A stretch of 64,000 nt of DNA from Escherichia coli (GTDB lineage Bacteria > Pseudomonadota > Gammaproteobacteria > Enterobacterales > Enterobacteriaceae), in assembly GCF_003019035.1 (NCBI RefSeq), contig NZ_CP027447.1; one strand, written 5' to 3'. The notes beneath the pieces are model-generated. The model was not told the origin of the DNA and ran no database searches. It worked only from the letters and a program-made list of their open reading frames with translations. How positions within the stretch are numbered: the first letter of the stretch is position 1; the number at the start of each line of letters is the position of its first letter. Positions 17,718-38,919 of the stretch are shown in pieces. Position numbers and translations under genes: made by a program.

Positions 17718-18683
17718 ATGAGAACCGTTAAGGTATTTGAGGAGGCCTGGCCCTTACATACCCCGTTTGTGATTGCCCGGGGAAGTCGCAGTGAAGCGCG
17801 CGTGGTGGTGGTTGAACTGGAAGAAGATGGCGTCAAAGGTACGGGCGAATGTACGCCTTATCCGCGCTATGGCGAAAGTGATGCCTCGGTAATGGCGCAA
17901 ATTATGAGCGTCGTGCCGCAATTAGAGAAAGGGCTGACACGGGAGGAGTTACAAAAAATCCTCCCTGCCGGCGCAGCACGTAATGCGCTGGATTGTGCAT
18001 TGTGGGATCTCGCGGCGCGAAAACAGCAGGAATCGCTGGCTGATTTGATCGGCATAACGCTTCCCGGGACAGTTATCACTGCACAGACGGTAGTCATCGG
18101 TACGCCTGATCAGATGGCCAATAGTGCATCAACACTCTGGCAGGCAGGCGCGAAATTACTGAAAGTGAAGCTGGATAACCATCTTATCAGTGAGCGGATG
18201 GTGGCAATTCGCACCGCTGTGCCCGATGCGACGCTGATCGTTGATGCAAATGAATCCTGGCGTGCAGAAGGGTTGGCGGCGCGTTGCCAGCTATTGGCGG
18301 ATTTAGGCGTTGCGATGCTTGAACAACCGCTTCCTGCGCAGGACGATGCGGCACTGGAGAATTTTATTCATCCGTTGCCGATTTGTGCTGATGAAAGTTG
18401 TCATACTCGTAGCAATCTGAAGGCGCTGAAAGGGCGCTATGAGATGGTTAACATTAAGCTTGATAAAACCGGTGGTCTGACGGAAGCGCTGGCGCTGGCG
18501 ACTGAAGCACGTGCACAAGGTTTTAGTCTGATGCTGGGCTGCATGTTGTGTACCTCTCGGGCCATTAGCGCCGCTTTACCGCTGGTGCCGCAGGTCAGTT
18601 TCGCCGATCTTGACGGACCGACCTGGCTGGCGGTAGATGTGGAACCGGCGCTTCAGTTCACGACGGGCGAATTGCATCTTTAG
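17718..18683 (+). CDS. ycjG: L-Ala-D/L-Glu epimerase (enolase superfamily)
   Basis: 321 aa from MRTVKVFEEAW; enolase-superfamily fold; adjacent to mpaA. Confidence 0.85.
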   Translation: MRTVKVFEEAWPLHTPFVIARGSRSEARVVVVELEEDGVKGTGECTPYPRYGESDASVMAQIMSVVPQLEKGLTREELQKILPAGAARNALDCALWDLAARKQQESLADLIGITLPGTVITAQTVVIGTPDQMANSASTLWQAGAKLLKVKLDNHLISERMVAIRTAVPDATLIVDANESWRAEGLAARCQLLADLGVAMLEQPLPAQDDAALENFIHPLPICADESCHTRSNLKALKGRYEMVNIKLDKTGGLTEALALATEARAQGFSLMLGCMLCTSRAISAALPLVPQVSFADLDGPTWLAVDVEPALQFTTGELHL

Positions 18684-23916: not shown

Positions 23917-24669
23917 TCAGGCAACGTTACGCGTGTGACCAGCAAGCTGGGCCAGCGCATCGTTATTTTCGATAGTGATGTATTTACCTTTGACTGCCAG
24001 CATACCGCTTTTCTGGAAGCGGCCCAGCAGACGGCTGATGGTTTCAACTGTCAGGCCCAGATAGTTACCGATATCACCACGAGTCATCGTCAGGCGGAAT
24101 TCACGAGGGGAGAAGCCGCGTTGGGCAAAACGACGGGACAGGTTGTAGATGAATGCAGCCAGACGTTCCTCGGCATTTTTCTTCGACAACAGCAGGATCA
24201 TGTCCTGATCGCCTTTGATTTCACCGCTCATCAGACGCATCATCTGCTGACGCAGATTCGGCATTTTACCGGACAAATCGTCCAGCGTTTCGAACGGGAT
24301 TTCACATACCATCGAGGTTTCCAGCGCCTGAGCGAAGCTCGGGTGATGACCGCTGCCGATAGCGTCAAATCCCACCAGGTCGCCTGCTAAATGGAAACCA
24401 GTGATTTGCTCGTCGCCTTGCTCAGTGATGGTATAACTTTTAATCGTACCGGAGCGGATGGCATAAAGCGATTTAAGTTCATCACCAGCCTTAAACAGCG
24501 TCTGGCCTTTCTGAATAGGCTTCTTTCGCTCAATGATATTATCAAGCTGATCAAGCTCATGTTCGTTGAGTGTGAACGGGATGCAAAGCTGGCTGATGCT
24601 GCAATCCTGGCAATGGATAGCACAACCGCCAGACTGAATGCGCCGTATAATTCGCTTTTCCGGGATCAT
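23917..24669 (-). CDS. fnr: FNR, oxygen-sensing [4Fe-4S] CRP-family global regulator
   Basis: 250 aa from [29 protein letters not shown] (Cys cluster); C-terminal HTH. Confidence 0.97.
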
Positions 24670-24688: not shown

Positions 24689-24702
24689 TTGATATTTGTC
24701 AA
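24689..24702 (-). promoter_or_regulatory. FNR box at the fnr promoter (autoregulation)
   Basis: minus-strand TTGACAAATATCAA = TTGAT-N4-ATCAA consensus with one mismatch, about 20 bp upstream of fnr ATG. Confidence 0.6.
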
Positions 24703-24863
24703 TTTTAACATCTTTTTAGGGAGCAAGTAAGTCTAAGCAAACCTTAACAGCAGAGAATTCCGATATTAGATGTAAATATATGTCTATCTATTTGAAAACC
24801 CTTAAGTTGTTAAGGGTAACTTTACATAAAAGTGTGAACAAGCTGGCACAAATTGTTTAATGT

Positions 24864-26952: not shown

Positions 26953-28398
26953 TTATTTTAAAGGTGACGGTGTCACGTTTTTCGGGATAGGGCAGTGATA
27001 CGGTTGCGTGTCCGTAACTTGCTGATGCTCTTGTTGGCATTCTTGCAATAGCCCTGAATCAATGAAGAGATTAAGTGTGGTTGCTGCCATAGTTTTCGCC
27101 GCCAGCAGCATTCCTTTATGAGCAATAGATGTTCGCCCCTGGCTAACCAGTTGCCACGTATGTAGCGGGGTACCGACGGCAAAACAGGGGCTGAAACACT
27201 GGGCAACAGGCAGTTTCCAACTGACGTCGCCGACATCAGTCGATGCCGCAAGCACGTTATCGGTGGCGGCATATGGAGCGACTTCATTCGCCAGTACCGT
27301 TTCACGATGACGTAGTGCAAAAGCCTTGCCGTTTTCGCCACCGGTTGCGGCGATATTATTCAGACTGTTTTGCCGATCGTTGGGGGTGAGCGTAGCCTGA
27401 ATTTGTTTCGCAAAAGCCAGTTCTTCGGAGTTCCATTCCGGGGTAGCAAAATGGGATAGGGCTCGGTACATGGCATTTTCTAAGGTGCGATTCGGGAGAT
27501 AACTGGAACAGGCTTTGTCGAAGCGGCATTCAACCGTGGTTTCGGTCATCAATGCCGCACCTTCGGCGATTTTGGCGACCCGATCATAAATATGCTGCAC
27601 ATCGGTCATTTCGGGGGCGCGGATAAGATAAAGCACTTCTGCCTGCGCCTGGACCTCGTTGGGCGAGATCCCGCCGCTATCTGTGATGGCATAGTGTACG
27701 CGCGCTTTTTCAATAATATGTTCGTTGAGGAAGTTGGTGCCAGTGGTCATCAACGTTACGGCATCAAGGGCGCTGCGTCCCAAATGAGGGGAATTCGCGG
27801 CATGTGCTGCGATCCCTTTAAAGCGCCATGATGCCTGAATGTTTGCCAGCGTGCGGGTATTGAACATACCGGCAAAGGCTTCCGGGTGCCATGTGAGTGC
27901 CGCATCCACATCATCAAATACCCCCTCGCGGACCATGAACGTTTTACCCGAGCCGCCTTCTTCGCCAGGACAACCATAAAAGCGCACTGTGCCGCCTTGC
28001 CCATATTGTTCCAGCCATTTCTTGACGGCTATTGCAGCGGCAAAGGCGGCAGTTCCCAGCAAATTGTGTCCGCAACCGTGACCATTTTCACCGGGCGTCG
28101 CGGATGTAGGTTGCGCGCAACCTGCTTGCTGACTTAAACCTGCCAGGGCGTCATATTCCCCCAGCAGGGCGATAACCGGTTTGCCTTGACCAAACGAAGC
28201 AATAAAGGCATTTGGGATATTGCCTACGTTGCGGGTAACGGTGAAGCCTGCAGACTCCAGCGCCGAAGCCAGATGCTCCGCTGACCAGAACTCTTCAAAA
28301 CGTGTTTCTGGATGATCCCAGATTTGATCGGCAATATCGGTATAACGTTGGCGATCGGCTTCAATCGCATCGTCGATAAAACGATAGATTTCCTGCAT
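26953..28398 (-). CDS. abgB: p-aminobenzoyl-glutamate hydrolase subunit B (M20 peptidase family)
   Basis: 481 aa; M20 metal-binding region GCPGEEGGSGK...; start ATG shares nucleotides with the upstream ORF stop (ATGA at 28398). Confidence 0.9.
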   Translation of the reverse strand: MQEIYRFIDDAIEADRQRYTDIADQIWDHPETRFEEFWSAEHLASALESAGFTVTRNVGNIPNAFIASFGQGKPVIALLGEYDALAGLSQQAGCAQPTSATPGENGHGCGHNLLGTAAFAAAIAVKKWLEQYGQGGTVRFYGCPGEEGGSGKTFMVREGVFDDVDAALTWHPEAFAGMFNTRTLANIQASWRFKGIAAHAANSPHLGRSALDAVTLMTTGTNFLNEHIIEKARVHYAITDSGGISPNEVQAQAEVLYLIRAPEMTDVQHIYDRVAKIAEGAALMTETTVECRFDKACSSYLPNRTLENAMYRALSHFATPEWNSEELAFAKQIQATLTPNDRQNSLNNIAATGGENGKAFALRHRETVLANEVAPYAATDNVLAASTDVGDVSWKLPVAQCFSPCFAVGTPLHTWQLVSQGRTSIAHKGMLLAAKTMAATTLNLFIDSGLLQECQQEHQQVTDTQPYHCPIPKNVTPSPLK

Positions 28399-29301
28399 CA
28401 GATACCTCGCGTCCAGGGAAAATTGAGCGCGGTGCGCGCCAGCGTTTCGACGGCAATAGCGAGAACCTGCTCGTCAAAATCGAATTTTTCATTGTGATGA
28501 CCTGCCGCCAGCTGTGTGCCAAATACCATGTAGGAGGCTTGCCCTTGATGTCGCTGCACGCGGGCCATCATTAATGTGGCATCTTCGGAACCCGCAGGCG
28601 CTTCAACACGTTCAATGGCCTGATTGACCCCCGCGACCTGAGCCGCCTGGATTTGCAACCATGCGACCCATTGCGGCGAAGGAGAACTGGCGGTAGCTGC
28701 ACCCATCAGACGAGTTTCAACGCCGACACCATACATGGTTGCTGCGCCCTGAATCGCTTGTTGTGCACGGTCAAAAACATATTGATTAATGACGTCGCTG
28801 GCCCCGCGTGTTTCCACTTTCAGCAACGCTGAGGCGGGAACAACATTACGACCGCTTCCTGCCTGCATAACGCCCACGTTTACTCTGGAAGCGCCTTCGC
28901 TGTGCGGGGCGATGGCTGACATCCTGCTCTTCACTGAAATCCAGCGCGTCCATATCGACACGGAAAGCCATCACCGGACCGGGGCGACCGGTATCCAGGG
29001 TAGCGACGATGCCAGTGAAACCGCCTTCAAAAGCCGCAATCCATTGTTCTAGCGCCCCCTGTTGACGAGCGCGCTCGAATTCGCGTTGTAGAGTGAATTC
29101 ATCAGGTAATCCCATCCGGCTACTTTCATTAACGACTTCGCGGCCCAGCGCCAGTGAATAACCGAGCTGGTGCAATTCTTCCGCAACAACGGTGGCAGTG
29201 CGGAATTCCACCCAGCCAGACTCTGCATAGTGGTGAAAATCACGTCGCCAGTACGATAATTTTGGGGCAAGCGAATTAATAAATTGATTCAAAGACTCCA
29301 T
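28398..29301 (-). pseudogene. abgA: abgA (M20D amidohydrolase subunit A) disrupted by internal deletion and frameshift
   Basis: N-terminal 5' part (MESLNQFINSLAPKL...DMDALDFSEEQDVSH) and C-terminal part (AIAPHSEGASRVNVGVMQAGSGRNVVP...FPWTRGI) lie in different frames; the central metal-binding segment expected for M20D enzymes is absent; total span 904 bp versus about 1.3 kb expected. Confidence 0.75.
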
Positions 29302-29476
29302 AACCTTTCCCGTCATCAGTAAAAAGTGTGACCCGGTTCACGTAGCGATAGTTTTTACTTATCACTAACTGATTTTTCACAGTTTTAACCGTTCATAAAT
29401 TACCCTGACACAATCATCTGCATTAAAGTAGATGCCAGTTTCTTTGGTCTGATAAATAACGGTTATCGGTGGCGTC

Positions 29477-30385: not shown

Positions 30386-30393
30386 AACTGCAT

Positions 30394-30488
30394 AAAAAAA
30401 ATAGAGTCTGTCGACATCCGCCAGACTCTACAGTACACACAGCAGTGCATCCGCGTCTTAAATCCGGCATGGTCTCCTCTGCGCCGGT
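30394..30488 (-). ncRNA. mcaS: McaS (IsrA) small regulatory RNA
   Basis: minus-strand sequence ACCGGCGCAGAGGAGACAATGCCGGATTTAAGACGCGGATGCACTGCTGTGTGTACTGTAGAGTCTGGCGGATGTCGACAGACTCTATTTTTTTT recognised, ending in hairpin + U-run. Confidence 0.85.
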
Positions 30489-32765: not shown

Positions 32766-33770
<1,005 letters not shown>

Positions 33771-33816
33771 CAAAAGCAATTTCTCCGGGATTCTGTATAC
33801 AAAAACGCCGTAAAGT

Positions 33817-33830
33817 TTGAGCGAAGTCAA
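33817..33830 (+). promoter_or_regulatory. FNR box of the fnrS promoter
   Basis: TTGAGCGAAGTCAA (TTGAT-N4-ATCAA-like) centred about 42 bp upstream of the FnrS 5' end (class II position). Confidence 0.65.
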
Positions 33831-33865
33831 TAAACTCCCTACCTATTCAGGGCAATATCTCTCTC

Positions 33866-33987
33866 GCAGGTGAATGCAACGTCAAGCGATGGGCGTTGCG
33901 CTCCATATTGTCTTACTTCCTTTTTTGAATTACTGCATAGCACAATTGATTCGTACGACGCCGACTTTGATGAGTCGGCTTTTTTTT
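33866..33987 (+). ncRNA. fnrS: FnrS small regulatory RNA
   Basis: GCAGGTGAATGCAACGTCAAGCGATGGGCG...GCCGACTTTGATGAGTCGGCTTTTTTT recognised; terminal hairpin + T7 run. Confidence 0.85.
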
Positions 33988-34044
33988 GCCTGTTATTTAT
34001 CAGCGTCTACCCTTTAAGAGTCCACCCAATGACCGGAGGGAAAT

Positions 34045-34218
34045 ATGACGACACTTATTTATTTGCAAATTCCTGTCCCTGAACCGATTCCTGGCGATCC
34101 TGTTCCAGTGCCCGATCCGATCCCTCGCCCGCAACCCATGCCTGACCCACCACCCGATGAAGAACCGATTAAATTGTCGCATCGTGAGCGTAGATCTGCG
34201 AGGATACGCGCCTGCTAA
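34045..34218 (+). CDS. unannotated 57-aa proline-rich small ORF (hypothetical)
   Basis: ATG preceded by GGAGGG SD at 5-nt spacing; MTTLIYLQIPVPEPIPGDPVPVPDPIPRPQPMPDPPPDEEPIKLSHRERRSARIRAC; below the 60-aa cut-off of the ORF track. Confidence 0.4.
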   Translation: MTTLIYLQIPVPEPIPGDPVPVPDPIPRPQPMPDPPPDEEPIKLSHRERRSARIRAC

Positions 34219-35749: not shown

Positions 35750-36685
35750 TTATTTCACTTCAACCACATTCAGTCGTAACTCATCCAACTGATTTTCATC
35801 TTCTTCAGGCTGCCAACCCGCCGGTTGTAGAGGGATCTCTTCGCGATCAAACGCCAGATCACCCCCGTTAACCACTTCAGAACCGTGGGTAATGCCTTTG
35901 AAATCGAACAGGTTGGTATCGCACAGATGCGACGGCACCACATTCTGCATCGCGCTGAACATCGTCTCGATACGCCCCGGATAACGTTTATCCCAGTCAC
36001 GCAACATGTCAGCAATCACCTGACGTTGCAGGTTAGGCTGTGAACCGCACAGGTTGCACGGAATAATCGGGAACGCTTTTGCATCGGCAAAGCGCTGAAT
36101 ATCTTTCTCGCGGCAGTAGGCCAGCGGACGAATAACGATATGTTTGCCATCATCGCTCATCAGTTTCGGAGGCATACCTTTCATCTTGCCGCCGTAGAAC
36201 ATATTTAAGAACAGCGTTTGCAGGATATCGTCACGATGGTGACCCAACGCGATCTTCGTCGCCCCCAGTTCCGTTGCGGTGCGATAAAGGATACCGCGAC
36301 GAAGACGAGAACACAGTGAGCAAGTGGTTTTGCCCTCCGGAATCTTCTCTTTCACGATACCGTAAGTGTTCTCTTCCACAATCTTGTACTCAACGCCCAG
36401 CTTTTCAAGATACTCGGGCAGAACGTGTTCCGGGAAGCCCGGTTGTTTTTGATCGAGGTTAACAGCCACCAGCGAAAAATTGATTGGCGCGCTTTGCTGC
36501 AAATTGCGCAGAATTTCCAGCATGGTATAGCTGTCTTTACCCCCGGAGAGGCAAACCATGATGCGATCGCCTTCTTCAATCATATTGAAGTCAGCAATGG
36601 CTTCGCCCACGTTACGACGCAGACGTTTTTGTAATTTGTTCAGGTTGTATTGTTCTTTCTTACTAATTTCTTGATTTTGCGACAT
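35750..36685 (-). CDS. ttcA: tRNA 2-thiocytidine(32) synthetase (PP-loop ATPase)
   Basis: 311 aa; PP-loop SGGKDS; CxxC pairs; appears intact. Confidence 0.92.
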
Positions 36686-36826
36686 TTAAAAGCGACTCAA
36701 TTCGTTATATGGCATCAGAAGAGTATGCGTCATGCCGGAACGCCCAGCATAAGAAATCTGATATAAAAACTGTGGCGTGTATGGTACGGATTAGAGGGGA
36801 AAATGTCAGCACATTTGCGAAATGAA

Positions 36827-36853
36827 TCAAAAAGCCCGCAGCAATGTGCGGGC
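36827..36853 (-). terminator. intrinsic terminator after uspF
   Basis: minus-strand hairpin GCCCGCACATTGCTGCGGGC followed by TTTTTGA. Confidence 0.7.
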
Positions 36854-36860
36854 GTTAGTG

Positions 36861-37376
<516 letters not shown>

Positions 37377-37402
37377 TTAGATCAAAGGAGGAAGAATAAG
37401 CA

Positions 37403-38554: not shown

Positions 38555-38781
38555 TGAATAAATCCTTTAGTTATTTTATTTGCCTTTTATCCCCATTTCG
38601 GGGAGTGAAAACATCCTAAAGGAGAAGTTCAGTTAGCCGATAAATATCATTTGTTACGCCTTAAGTAAAACCTTAATCAAATAATTCCTCTGAAATGATA
38701 ATAAGTCTGGTGAATGTATCGAAGATAATACATACAAAATAAAAATTATACTTTTAATTTGCTATACGTTATTCTTCGCGG

Positions 38782-38891
38782 GTTATATGCCTTTATTGTC
38801 ACAGATTTTATTTTCTGTTGGGCCATTGCATTGCCACTGATTTTCCAACATATAAAAAGACAAGCCCGAACAGTCGTCCGGGCTTTTTTTT
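38782..38891 (+). ncRNA. micC: MicC small regulatory RNA (represses ompC translation)
   Basis: GTTATATGCCTTTATTGTCACAGATTTTATTTTCTGTTGGGCCATTGCATTGCCACTGATTTTCCAACATATAAAAAGACAAGCCCGAACAGTCGTCCGGGCTTTTTTTT recognised, in the ompN-ydbK gap. Confidence 0.85.
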
Positions 38892-38919
38892 AGAATTGGA
38901 TAATCCTTATCCAGAGCAT

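What the first reader, a model, noticed from the sequence alone, without database searches (positions are those of the whole stretch)
33817..33987. FnrS sRNA with a class-II-positioned FNR box, on the same segment as fnr itself and its own autoregulatory FNR box
The FnrS promoter box TTGAGCGAAGTCAA is centred about 42 bp upstream of the sRNA 5' end. The fnr promoter carries TTGACAAATATCAA (24689..24702, minus strand). Both halves of the FNR to FnrS regulatory relay are therefore present and apparently intact, which is useful for predicting anaerobic regulation in this strain.
Basis: partly seen in the sequence, partly recalled or inferred. Interest (0 to 1): 0.2.

Follow-up and report, generated by a model that had tools for sequence, protein, structure and literature searches.

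The report
Known E. coli FnrS/FNR oxygen-response circuit
This is the ordinary, well-studied E. coli pair of the oxygen-sensing regulator gene fnr and the small RNA FnrS that it switches on without oxygen; both are intact and essentially identical to the laboratory strain K-12, so nothing here is new.

Summary
The window is an E. coli chromosome segment (uspE-fnr-ogt-abg-mcaS-smrA-dgcM-zntB-fnrS-ynaL-dbpA-ttcA). Rfam places FnrS at 33866..33983 (134.8 bits against a gathering score of 60). The 122-nt RNA (33866..33987) is 100% identical to K-12 b4699. The box TTGAGCGAAGTCAA (33817..33830) is centred at -42.5, the position and sequence published for K-12. There it lies under an FNR ChIP-seq peak and passes the published PWM threshold (ln p -11.69 against -10.75). 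The fnr box TTGACAAATATCAA (24689..24702, minus strand) is centred at -0.5, the known autorepression site. The ogt-fnr intergenic region and the FNR protein are 100% identical to K-12. On sequence alone the fnrS box is not exceptional (about 1.4 equally good sites expected per 64 kb). Position supplies the proof. In 117 of 117 loci from other Enterobacterales the best FNR-like site upstream of FnrS lies at -42.5 (112), -41.5 (4) or -43.5 (1). The half-sites are invariant and the DNA between the box and the -10 element is unconstrained. The promoter differences from K-12 avoid the box and the -10 hexamer. Already known; low interest.

The parts
33817..33830 (+). FNR box of the fnrS promoter, TTGAGCGAAGTCAA, centred at -42.5 (class II position)
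   Evidence: Sequence read directly and identical to K-12. Published PatSer score 13.21, ln p -11.69, under an FNR ChIP-seq peak in K-12. Third-best PWM site in the window. The best FNR-like site falls at this position in 117 of 117 Enterobacterales loci, with TG (-48, -47) and TCAA (-39..-36) invariant.
33853..33858 (+). Inferred -10 hexamer CAATAT (-13..-8); no recognisable -35 hexamer
   Evidence: C-13, A-12 and T-8 are invariant in 108 distinct promoter sequences, while -30..-18 carries about 0 to 0.5 bits. No sigma-70 consensus promoter was found in 33700..34100, as expected for an activator-dependent promoter. The assignment as the -10 element is an inference.
33866..33987 (+). FnrS small RNA, 122 nt
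   Evidence: RF01796 hit at 33866..33983, 134.8 bits. 100% identical to K-12 fnrS b4699.
33960..33987 (+). Intrinsic terminator of FnrS: 8-bp GC-rich hairpin followed by eight T
   Evidence: Terminator scan, predicted fold and the Rfam structure line.
23917..24669 (-). fnr coding sequence (250 aa)
   Evidence: 250/250 identical to K-12 FNR. Annotated as fnr in matching genomes.
24689..24702 (-). FNR box at the fnr promoter, TTGACAAATATCAA, centred at -0.5 (autorepression site)
   Evidence: Sequence read directly; the intergenic region is 100% identical to K-12. Published position -0.5, listed as directly repressed, ChIP-seq peak, PatSer 13.66, ln p -12.16. Second-best PWM site in the window.
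24792..24805 (-). Weak upstream FNR-like site TTAAGGGTTTTCAA, 103 bp upstream of the first, i.e. centred at -103.5
   Evidence: Sequence and spacing read directly. That this is the second, upstream FNR site of the fnr promoter rests on my recollection of Mettert and Kiley 2007. That paper could not be read here. The site does not reach the top 25 PWM sites of the window.

Best explanation
This is the standard E. coli FNR-to-FnrS relay. Without oxygen, FNR holds a [4Fe-4S] cluster and dimerises. It binds the box at -42.5 of the fnrS promoter, which has a usable -10 element but no -35 element, and recruits RNA polymerase as a class II activator. This yields the 122-nt FnrS RNA, which ends at its intrinsic terminator. 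FnrS, together with Hfq, base-pairs with mRNAs of functions not needed anaerobically and lowers their expression. The same active FNR binds the box that overlaps its own transcription start (-0.5) and limits fnr transcription. Shown here: the sequences, their positions, their identity to K-12, and the conservation of the box at a fixed distance across Enterobacterales. Taken from published K-12 work: FNR occupancy at both sites and the direction of regulation. Taken from established knowledge and inferred for this strain: the cluster chemistry, the polymerase contacts, Hfq dependence and the targets.
For: FnrS matches Rfam at full length with 134.8 bits and is 100% identical to K-12 b4699. The box is identical too. 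The centre at -42.5 equals the published value, with an FNR ChIP-seq peak and sigma-70 occupancy higher without oxygen in K-12. The published PWM scores for both 14-mers pass the precision-recall threshold. My leave-out PWM ranks uspF, fnr and fnrS as the top three of the window, and these are exactly the three loci of this region that combine a K-12 ChIP-seq peak with an above-threshold site. In 117 of 117 species loci, chosen by a pattern inside the RNA rather than in the promoter, the best FNR-like site lies at -42.5, -41.5 or -43.5. The half-sites and the -10 positions are invariant and the DNA between them is unconstrained. No sigma-70 consensus promoter is present, which fits dependence on an activator. 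The FNR protein and the ogt-fnr intergenic region are 100% identical to K-12. Reviews and later papers state that FnrS is FNR-controlled and induced anaerobically.
Against: Nothing contradicts it. The caveats are as follows. No expression or binding data exist for this strain. The transcription start is carried over from K-12 annotation and the Rfam model; it was not mapped here. The box has two mismatches to TTGAT-N4-ATCAA and a score that chance would reach about 1.4 times per 64 kb. The promoter differs from K-12 at -83, -77..-75, -55, -28, -22 and -1. hfq and the target mRNAs lie outside the window. The primary FnrS papers and the fnr-promoter paper could not be read.
Confidence: 0.95

Rival explanations
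1. The fnrS box is a chance resemblance to an FNR site, and the RNA is driven by something else.
For: There are two mismatches to the consensus. 58 sites with up to 2 mismatches occur in the window. About 1.4 sites of equal PWM score are expected per 64 kb.
Against: The best FNR-like site falls at the same position in 117 of 117 species, with invariant half-sites beside unconstrained neighbouring DNA. The identical 14-mer lies under an FNR ChIP-seq peak in K-12.
Confidence: 0.01
2. The box is used mainly by CRP, the related regulator with a similar palindrome, and not by FNR.
For: A review states that CRP negatively influences fnrS transcription. CRP and FNR sites share the N6 spacing between the core tetramers.
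Against: Both half-sites read TTGA/TCAA, not the GTGA/TCAC of CRP sites. That this position discriminates the two proteins is established knowledge and was not tested here. T at -48 is invariant across 108 promoter sequences. FNR ChIP-seq enrichment is reported at the site.
Confidence: 0.02
3. The relay is present, but the lineage-specific promoter substitutions measurably change the level or co-regulation of FnrS relative to K-12.
For: There are eight substituted positions between -83 and -1. Only 136 of 5392 E. coli genomes are at least 99% identical over the 401-bp query. ArcA and CRP are reported to affect fnrS, and their sites were not located here.
Against: None of the substitutions touches the box or the invariant -10 positions. 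Those at -28 and -22 fall in columns with 0.06 and 0.27 bits. At -1 the window carries the majority base (C in 90 of 108), and K-12 carries the minority base.
Confidence: 0.05

Closest known systems
E. coli K-12 fnrS (b4699) and its FNR-dependent promoter (Durand and Storz 2010; Boysen et al. 2010; Myers et al. 2013)
   Same: The RNA is 122/122 identical. The FNR box is identical and lies at -42.5. The -10 hexamer and terminator are the same. The neighbours are the same: zntB upstream, ynaL and dbpA downstream.
   Different: The only differences are non-conserved promoter positions (-83, -77..-75, -55, -28, -22, -1) and one base before ynaL.
E. coli K-12 fnr promoter with its autorepression site at -0.5 (Mettert and Kiley 2007, as cited by Myers et al. 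2013)
   Same: All 271 bases of the ogt-fnr intergenic region and the 5' end of fnr that were compared are identical, and the FNR protein is identical.
   Different: Nothing detected.
Other class II FNR-activated promoters of E. coli (for example narK and caiF at -41.5, ydhY at -42.5)
   Same: An FNR palindrome is centred about 41.5 to 42.5 bp upstream of the start, where it replaces a -35 element.
   Different: The product is a regulatory RNA, not an mRNA. The box is of middling quality (PatSer 13.21, against 17.06 for narK).
FNR/oxygen-responsive small RNAs of other bacteria (the FnrS-like RNA in Neisseria gonorrhoeae, PaiI of Pseudomonas aeruginosa, RoxS of Bacillus subtilis)
   Same: The logic is the same: a sensor of oxygen or nitrogen oxides switches on a small RNA that represses mRNAs (titles and text seen).
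   Different: The sequences and, in part, the regulators are unrelated. They are analogues, not members of RF01796. No comparison was run here.

Membership tests
FnrS small RNA (Rfam RF01796) | Score at or above the family's gathering threshold over the full model | tested here: met
   134.8 bits against 60, model positions 1-119 of 119, E = 4.4e-24.
FnrS small RNA (Rfam RF01796) | 5' stem-loop, unpaired U-rich middle region, second stem-loop, and an intrinsic terminator with a U-tail | tested here: met
   All paired model positions form standard pairs in the Rfam alignment. The terminator was found independently. The minimum-energy fold gives the same helices, although its z-score of -1.67 is not significant by itself.
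FnrS small RNA (Rfam RF01796) | Genomic position downstream of zntB (ydaN), on the same strand | tested here: met
   zntB lies at 32787..33770. zntB is upstream on the same strand in 88 of 95 species loci with enough flank.
FnrS small RNA (Rfam RF01796) | Anaerobic, FNR-dependent accumulation; Hfq-dependent pairing with target mRNAs | not testable with these tools
   Inferred from 100% identity to the K-12 RNA and from the literature.
Class II FNR-activated promoter | A site matching the FNR matrix (TTGAT-N4-ATCAA) above a stated threshold | tested here: met
   The published PatSer ln p for this 14-mer is -11.69 against a threshold of -10.75. My leave-out PWM gives 13.08, within the range of the training sites (11.8 to 21.1), and ranks the site third in the window.
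Class II FNR-activated promoter | Site centred near -41.5 relative to the transcription start | tested here: met
   The centre, 33823.5, is -42.5 from 33866, the same as published. The start itself is carried over from K-12 and was not mapped in this strain.
Class II FNR-activated promoter | Poor or absent -35 element together with a usable -10 element | tested here: met
   No sigma-70 consensus pair was found. The pattern CAnnnT at -13..-8 is conserved.
Class II FNR-activated promoter | FNR occupancy in vivo and dependence of transcription on FNR | not testable with these tools
   A ChIP-seq peak is reported over the identical site in K-12. There are no data for this strain.
FNR-autorepressed fnr promoter | An FNR site overlapping the fnr transcription start (-0.5) | tested here: met
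   The box at 24689..24702 sits in a region 100% identical to K-12. The published position is -0.5, in the directly repressed category, with PatSer ln p -12.16.
FNR protein (CRP/FNR family oxygen sensor) | An intact reading frame with the N-terminal cysteine cluster and the C-terminal DNA-recognition helix | tested here: met
   250/250 identical to K-12 FNR, including C20, C23, C29, C122 and the segment ETISRLLGR. The roles of these residues are established knowledge.

The most novel reading that the evidence does not exclude
The most novel reading not excluded concerns ynaL, the small proline-rich protein gene. It starts only 57 nt after the FnrS T-run, and no sigma-70-like promoter lies between them. 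ynaL (and perhaps dbpA) might be expressed partly by read-through of the FnrS terminator and so be drawn into the FNR regulon. Alternatively, the promoter substitutions of this lineage might retune FnrS output. Neither reading has positive evidence.
Probability: 0.05. Interest if true: 0.25.

Novelty: already known. Interest (0 to 1): 0.07.

Why it matters
It matters little beyond annotation. The result confirms that this strain, a Rac-less E. coli closest to SCU-301 and SMS-3-5, carries an unaltered FNR sensor, an unaltered fnr promoter and an unaltered FnrS RNA with its activator site. K-12 knowledge of anaerobic regulation can therefore be transferred to it. RefSeq annotation of matching genomes does not list fnrS, so the coordinates are useful for annotation. 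The cross-species table is a clean example of a phylogenetic footprint: a binding site of only middling score is identified unambiguously because its distance to the start is fixed.

Tried and rejected
(1) Consensus matching alone is not discriminating. With up to 2 mismatches there are 58 hits in the window against 37.8 expected.

(2) The thermodynamic fold of FnrS gives a z-score of -1.67, not significant. Folding energy alone would not have identified the RNA, whereas the covariance model does.

(3) The primary papers were requested and are not held: Durand and Storz 2010, Boysen et al. 2010, and Mettert and Kiley 2007. A text search for the -103.5 site found nothing. The identity of the upstream fnr site therefore rests on my memory plus the measured 103-bp spacing.

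(4) I asked whether the fnr-fnrS linkage is conserved outside E. coli. Only one of the held loci reached far enough to contain fnr, so this is not informative.

(5) I considered whether the box could be a CRP site or a chance match. Both were rejected on half-site sequence, conservation and published ChIP data.

(6) The 70-aa ORF at 33870..34082 that overlaps FnrS is a mechanical ORF across a non-coding RNA and was disregarded.

(7) ArcA and CRP sites in the fnrS promoter were not searched for.

Full report
**What is in the sequence**

The stretch 33817..33987 reads TTGAGCGAAGTCAA, then 35 bases, then GCAGGTGAATGCAACG... and ends in a GC-rich hairpin followed by eight T. A scan of the whole window against Rfam gives three matches at gathering score. 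One is FnrS (RF01796) at 33866..33983 on the + strand: 134.8 bits against a threshold of 60, full model length, E = 4.4e-24. The other two are McaS and MicC. The box centre lies between 33823 and 33824, which is -42.5 from the RNA's first base. On the minus strand, 24689..24702 reads TTGACAAATATCAA, 19 nt before an ATG that opens [10 protein letters not shown]....

**Where the window comes from**

The 401 bases around FnrS are found in 5392 of 5426 complete E. coli genomes, with 100% identity in a set of strains. Gene order in a matching genome and in K-12 is uspE, fnr, ogt, abgT, abgB, abgA, abgR, (mcaS), smrA, dgcM, ynaN, zntB, (fnrS), ynaL, dbpA, ttcA. K-12 annotates fnrS as b4699, 122 nt. 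The RefSeq annotation of the matching strains does not list it.

**Comparison with K-12**

The RNA is identical at all 122 positions, as are the FNR box, the -10 region and the terminator. Differences lie at -83, -77..-75, -55, -28, -22 and -1, plus one base ahead of ynaL. All 271 bases compared across the ogt-fnr intergenic region and the start of fnr are identical to K-12. The FNR protein is 250/250 identical.

Myers et al. 2013 (PMC3688515) built an FNR matrix from ChIP-seq peaks and set a precision-recall threshold of ln p = -10.75. Their Table S6 lists the very 14-mers found here:

| Site | Sequence | PatSer score | ln p | ChIP-seq peak in K-12 |
|---|---|---|---|---|
| fnrS | TTGAGCGAAGTCAA | 13.21 | -11.69 | yes |
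| fnr | TTGATATTTGTCAA | 13.66 | -12.16 | yes |
| uspF | TTAATTTAGATCAA | 14.68 | -13.22 | yes |

. Their Table 1 places the fnrS site at -42.5 among directly activated operons. It places the fnr site at -0.5 among directly repressed operons.

I re-derived a symmetric matrix from the 60 ChIP-associated sites that remain after leaving out those three, and scanned the window. The three best sites of the 64 kb are uspF (16.7), fnr (15.0) and fnrS (13.1). In first-order Markov sequences of the same composition, 1.37, 0.48 and 0.13 sites respectively are expected at or above the fnrS, fnr and uspF scores. Equally, the fnrS box would not stand out on score alone.

**Evidence independent of score**

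I collected FnrS loci from one genome per species, using a 20-base pattern that lies inside the RNA (+15 to +42). The promoter therefore played no part in the selection. In the 117 loci with enough upstream DNA, the best FNR-matrix site between -110 and -10 is centred as follows:

- at -42.5 in 112 loci;
- at -41.5 in 4 loci (three are named Yersinia in the listing; the fourth was not identified);
- at -43.5 in 1 locus.

Column by column, over 108 distinct promoter sequences in the -42.5 register, these positions are invariant: T-48, G-47, T-39, C-38, A-37, A-36, C-13, A-12 and T-8. Positions -30 to -18 carry 0.02 to 0.55 bits. This is the footprint expected of a class II activator site plus a -10 hexamer (CAnnnT, here CAATAT at 33853..33858) with no -35 element. 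In agreement, no sigma-70 consensus promoter is found in 33700..34100. The window's substitutions at -28 and -22 fall in unconstrained columns. At -1 the window has the majority base, and K-12 has the minority base.

**Mechanism**

The following comes from established knowledge of FNR and from the cited literature. Anaerobic [4Fe-4S]-FNR dimers bind at -42.5 and activate transcription of FnrS. FnrS, with Hfq, represses mRNAs of functions that are dispensable without oxygen. FNR bound at -0.5 of its own promoter limits fnr transcription.

A second, weak FNR-like sequence lies on the minus strand at 24792..24805 (TTAAGGGTTTTCAA). It is exactly 103 bp upstream of the first, hence centred at -103.5. 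I recall this as the known upstream site of the fnr promoter, but I could not read the paper.

What is shown here is sequence, position, identity and conservation. Occupancy and direction of regulation are published for identical K-12 sequences. Expression in this strain is inferred.

**Rivals**

- A chance match is excluded by conservation.
- Use of the box by CRP is unlikely, because both half-sites are TTGA/TCAA and FNR ChIP enrichment is reported.
- A lineage-specific change in FnrS output remains formally open, but no conserved position is altered.

**Verdict**

Observation confirmed, interpretation supported, already known, low interest. Side observations are listed separately. They include the uspF FNR site, silent predicted sites, absence of the Rac prophage, a shortened abgA, a split autotransporter gene, the position of ynaL, and clade-specific variants of the box.

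Noticed in passing
window 37372..37385: TTAATTTAGATCAA, about 83 bp upstream of the uspF start (uspF 36861..37295, minus strand), is the best FNR-matrix site of the whole window (16.7). The identical 14-mer lies under an FNR ChIP-seq peak in K-12 (PatSer 14.68). The window therefore holds three experimentally supported FNR targets, not two.
   Followed up: partly
window 18241..18254 and 36449..36462: TTGATGCAAATGAA (inside ycjG) and TTGATCGAGGTTAA (inside ttcA) are identical to sites that Myers et al. list as predicted above threshold but without a ChIP-seq peak in K-12. Those sites overlap Fis, or H-NS and IHF, enrichment there.
   Followed up: partly
window 36686..36860: ttcA is followed directly by uspF, so there is no Rac-type prophage. 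K-12 and strain FDAARGOS_497, whose fnrS region is identical, carry one at this point. 2486 of 5426 complete E. coli genomes are contiguous across ttcA-uspF-porin-pfo.
   Followed up: partly
window 28398..29301: abgA is about 400 nt shorter than in K-12 and is broken into two overlapping ORFs (28398..28961 and 28846..29316). It is annotated as frameshifted in the closest genome, SCU-301. The p-aminobenzoyl-glutamate hydrolase is probably inactive.
   Followed up: partly
window 48316..54278: A large autotransporter gene is split into two overlapping ORFs (48316..51162 and 51102..54278). In SCU-301 it is one intact gene of 5964 nt. This points to a one-base frameshift or a sequencing error near 51.1 kb.
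   Followed up: no
window 34045..34218: ynaL, a 57-aa proline-rich small protein gene, starts 57 nt after the FnrS T-run. It has a GGAGGG ribosome-binding site, and no sigma-70-like promoter lies between. Its transcription source is unclear; read-through from FnrS is possible. A ynaL homologue follows FnrS in only 15 of 109 species loci, mostly relatives of Escherichia, Citrobacter and Enterobacter.
   Followed up: partly
loci L014, L027, L028, L030, L032, L043, L052, L054 and others: In loci of the Erwinia, Pantoea and Mixta type the fnrS box reads CTGATCGAYATCAA, not TTGAGC...TCAA. The left half-site loses T1 but gains the consensus T5. In four loci (L003, L012, L090, L102; the first two are named Yersinia) the spacing is -41.5.
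   Followed up: no
window 30393..30488 (-) and 38779..38899 (+): Two further known small RNAs are found at Rfam gathering score: McaS (112.3 bits) and MicC (125.3 bits). Neither is annotated in the matching RefSeq genomes.
   Followed up: no
window 56961..56974: The third exact TTGA-N6-TCAA of the window (TTGACACGTTTCAA) lies inside the ydbD coding region and scores below the 25 best matrix sites. It is most likely a chance occurrence.
   Followed up: partly
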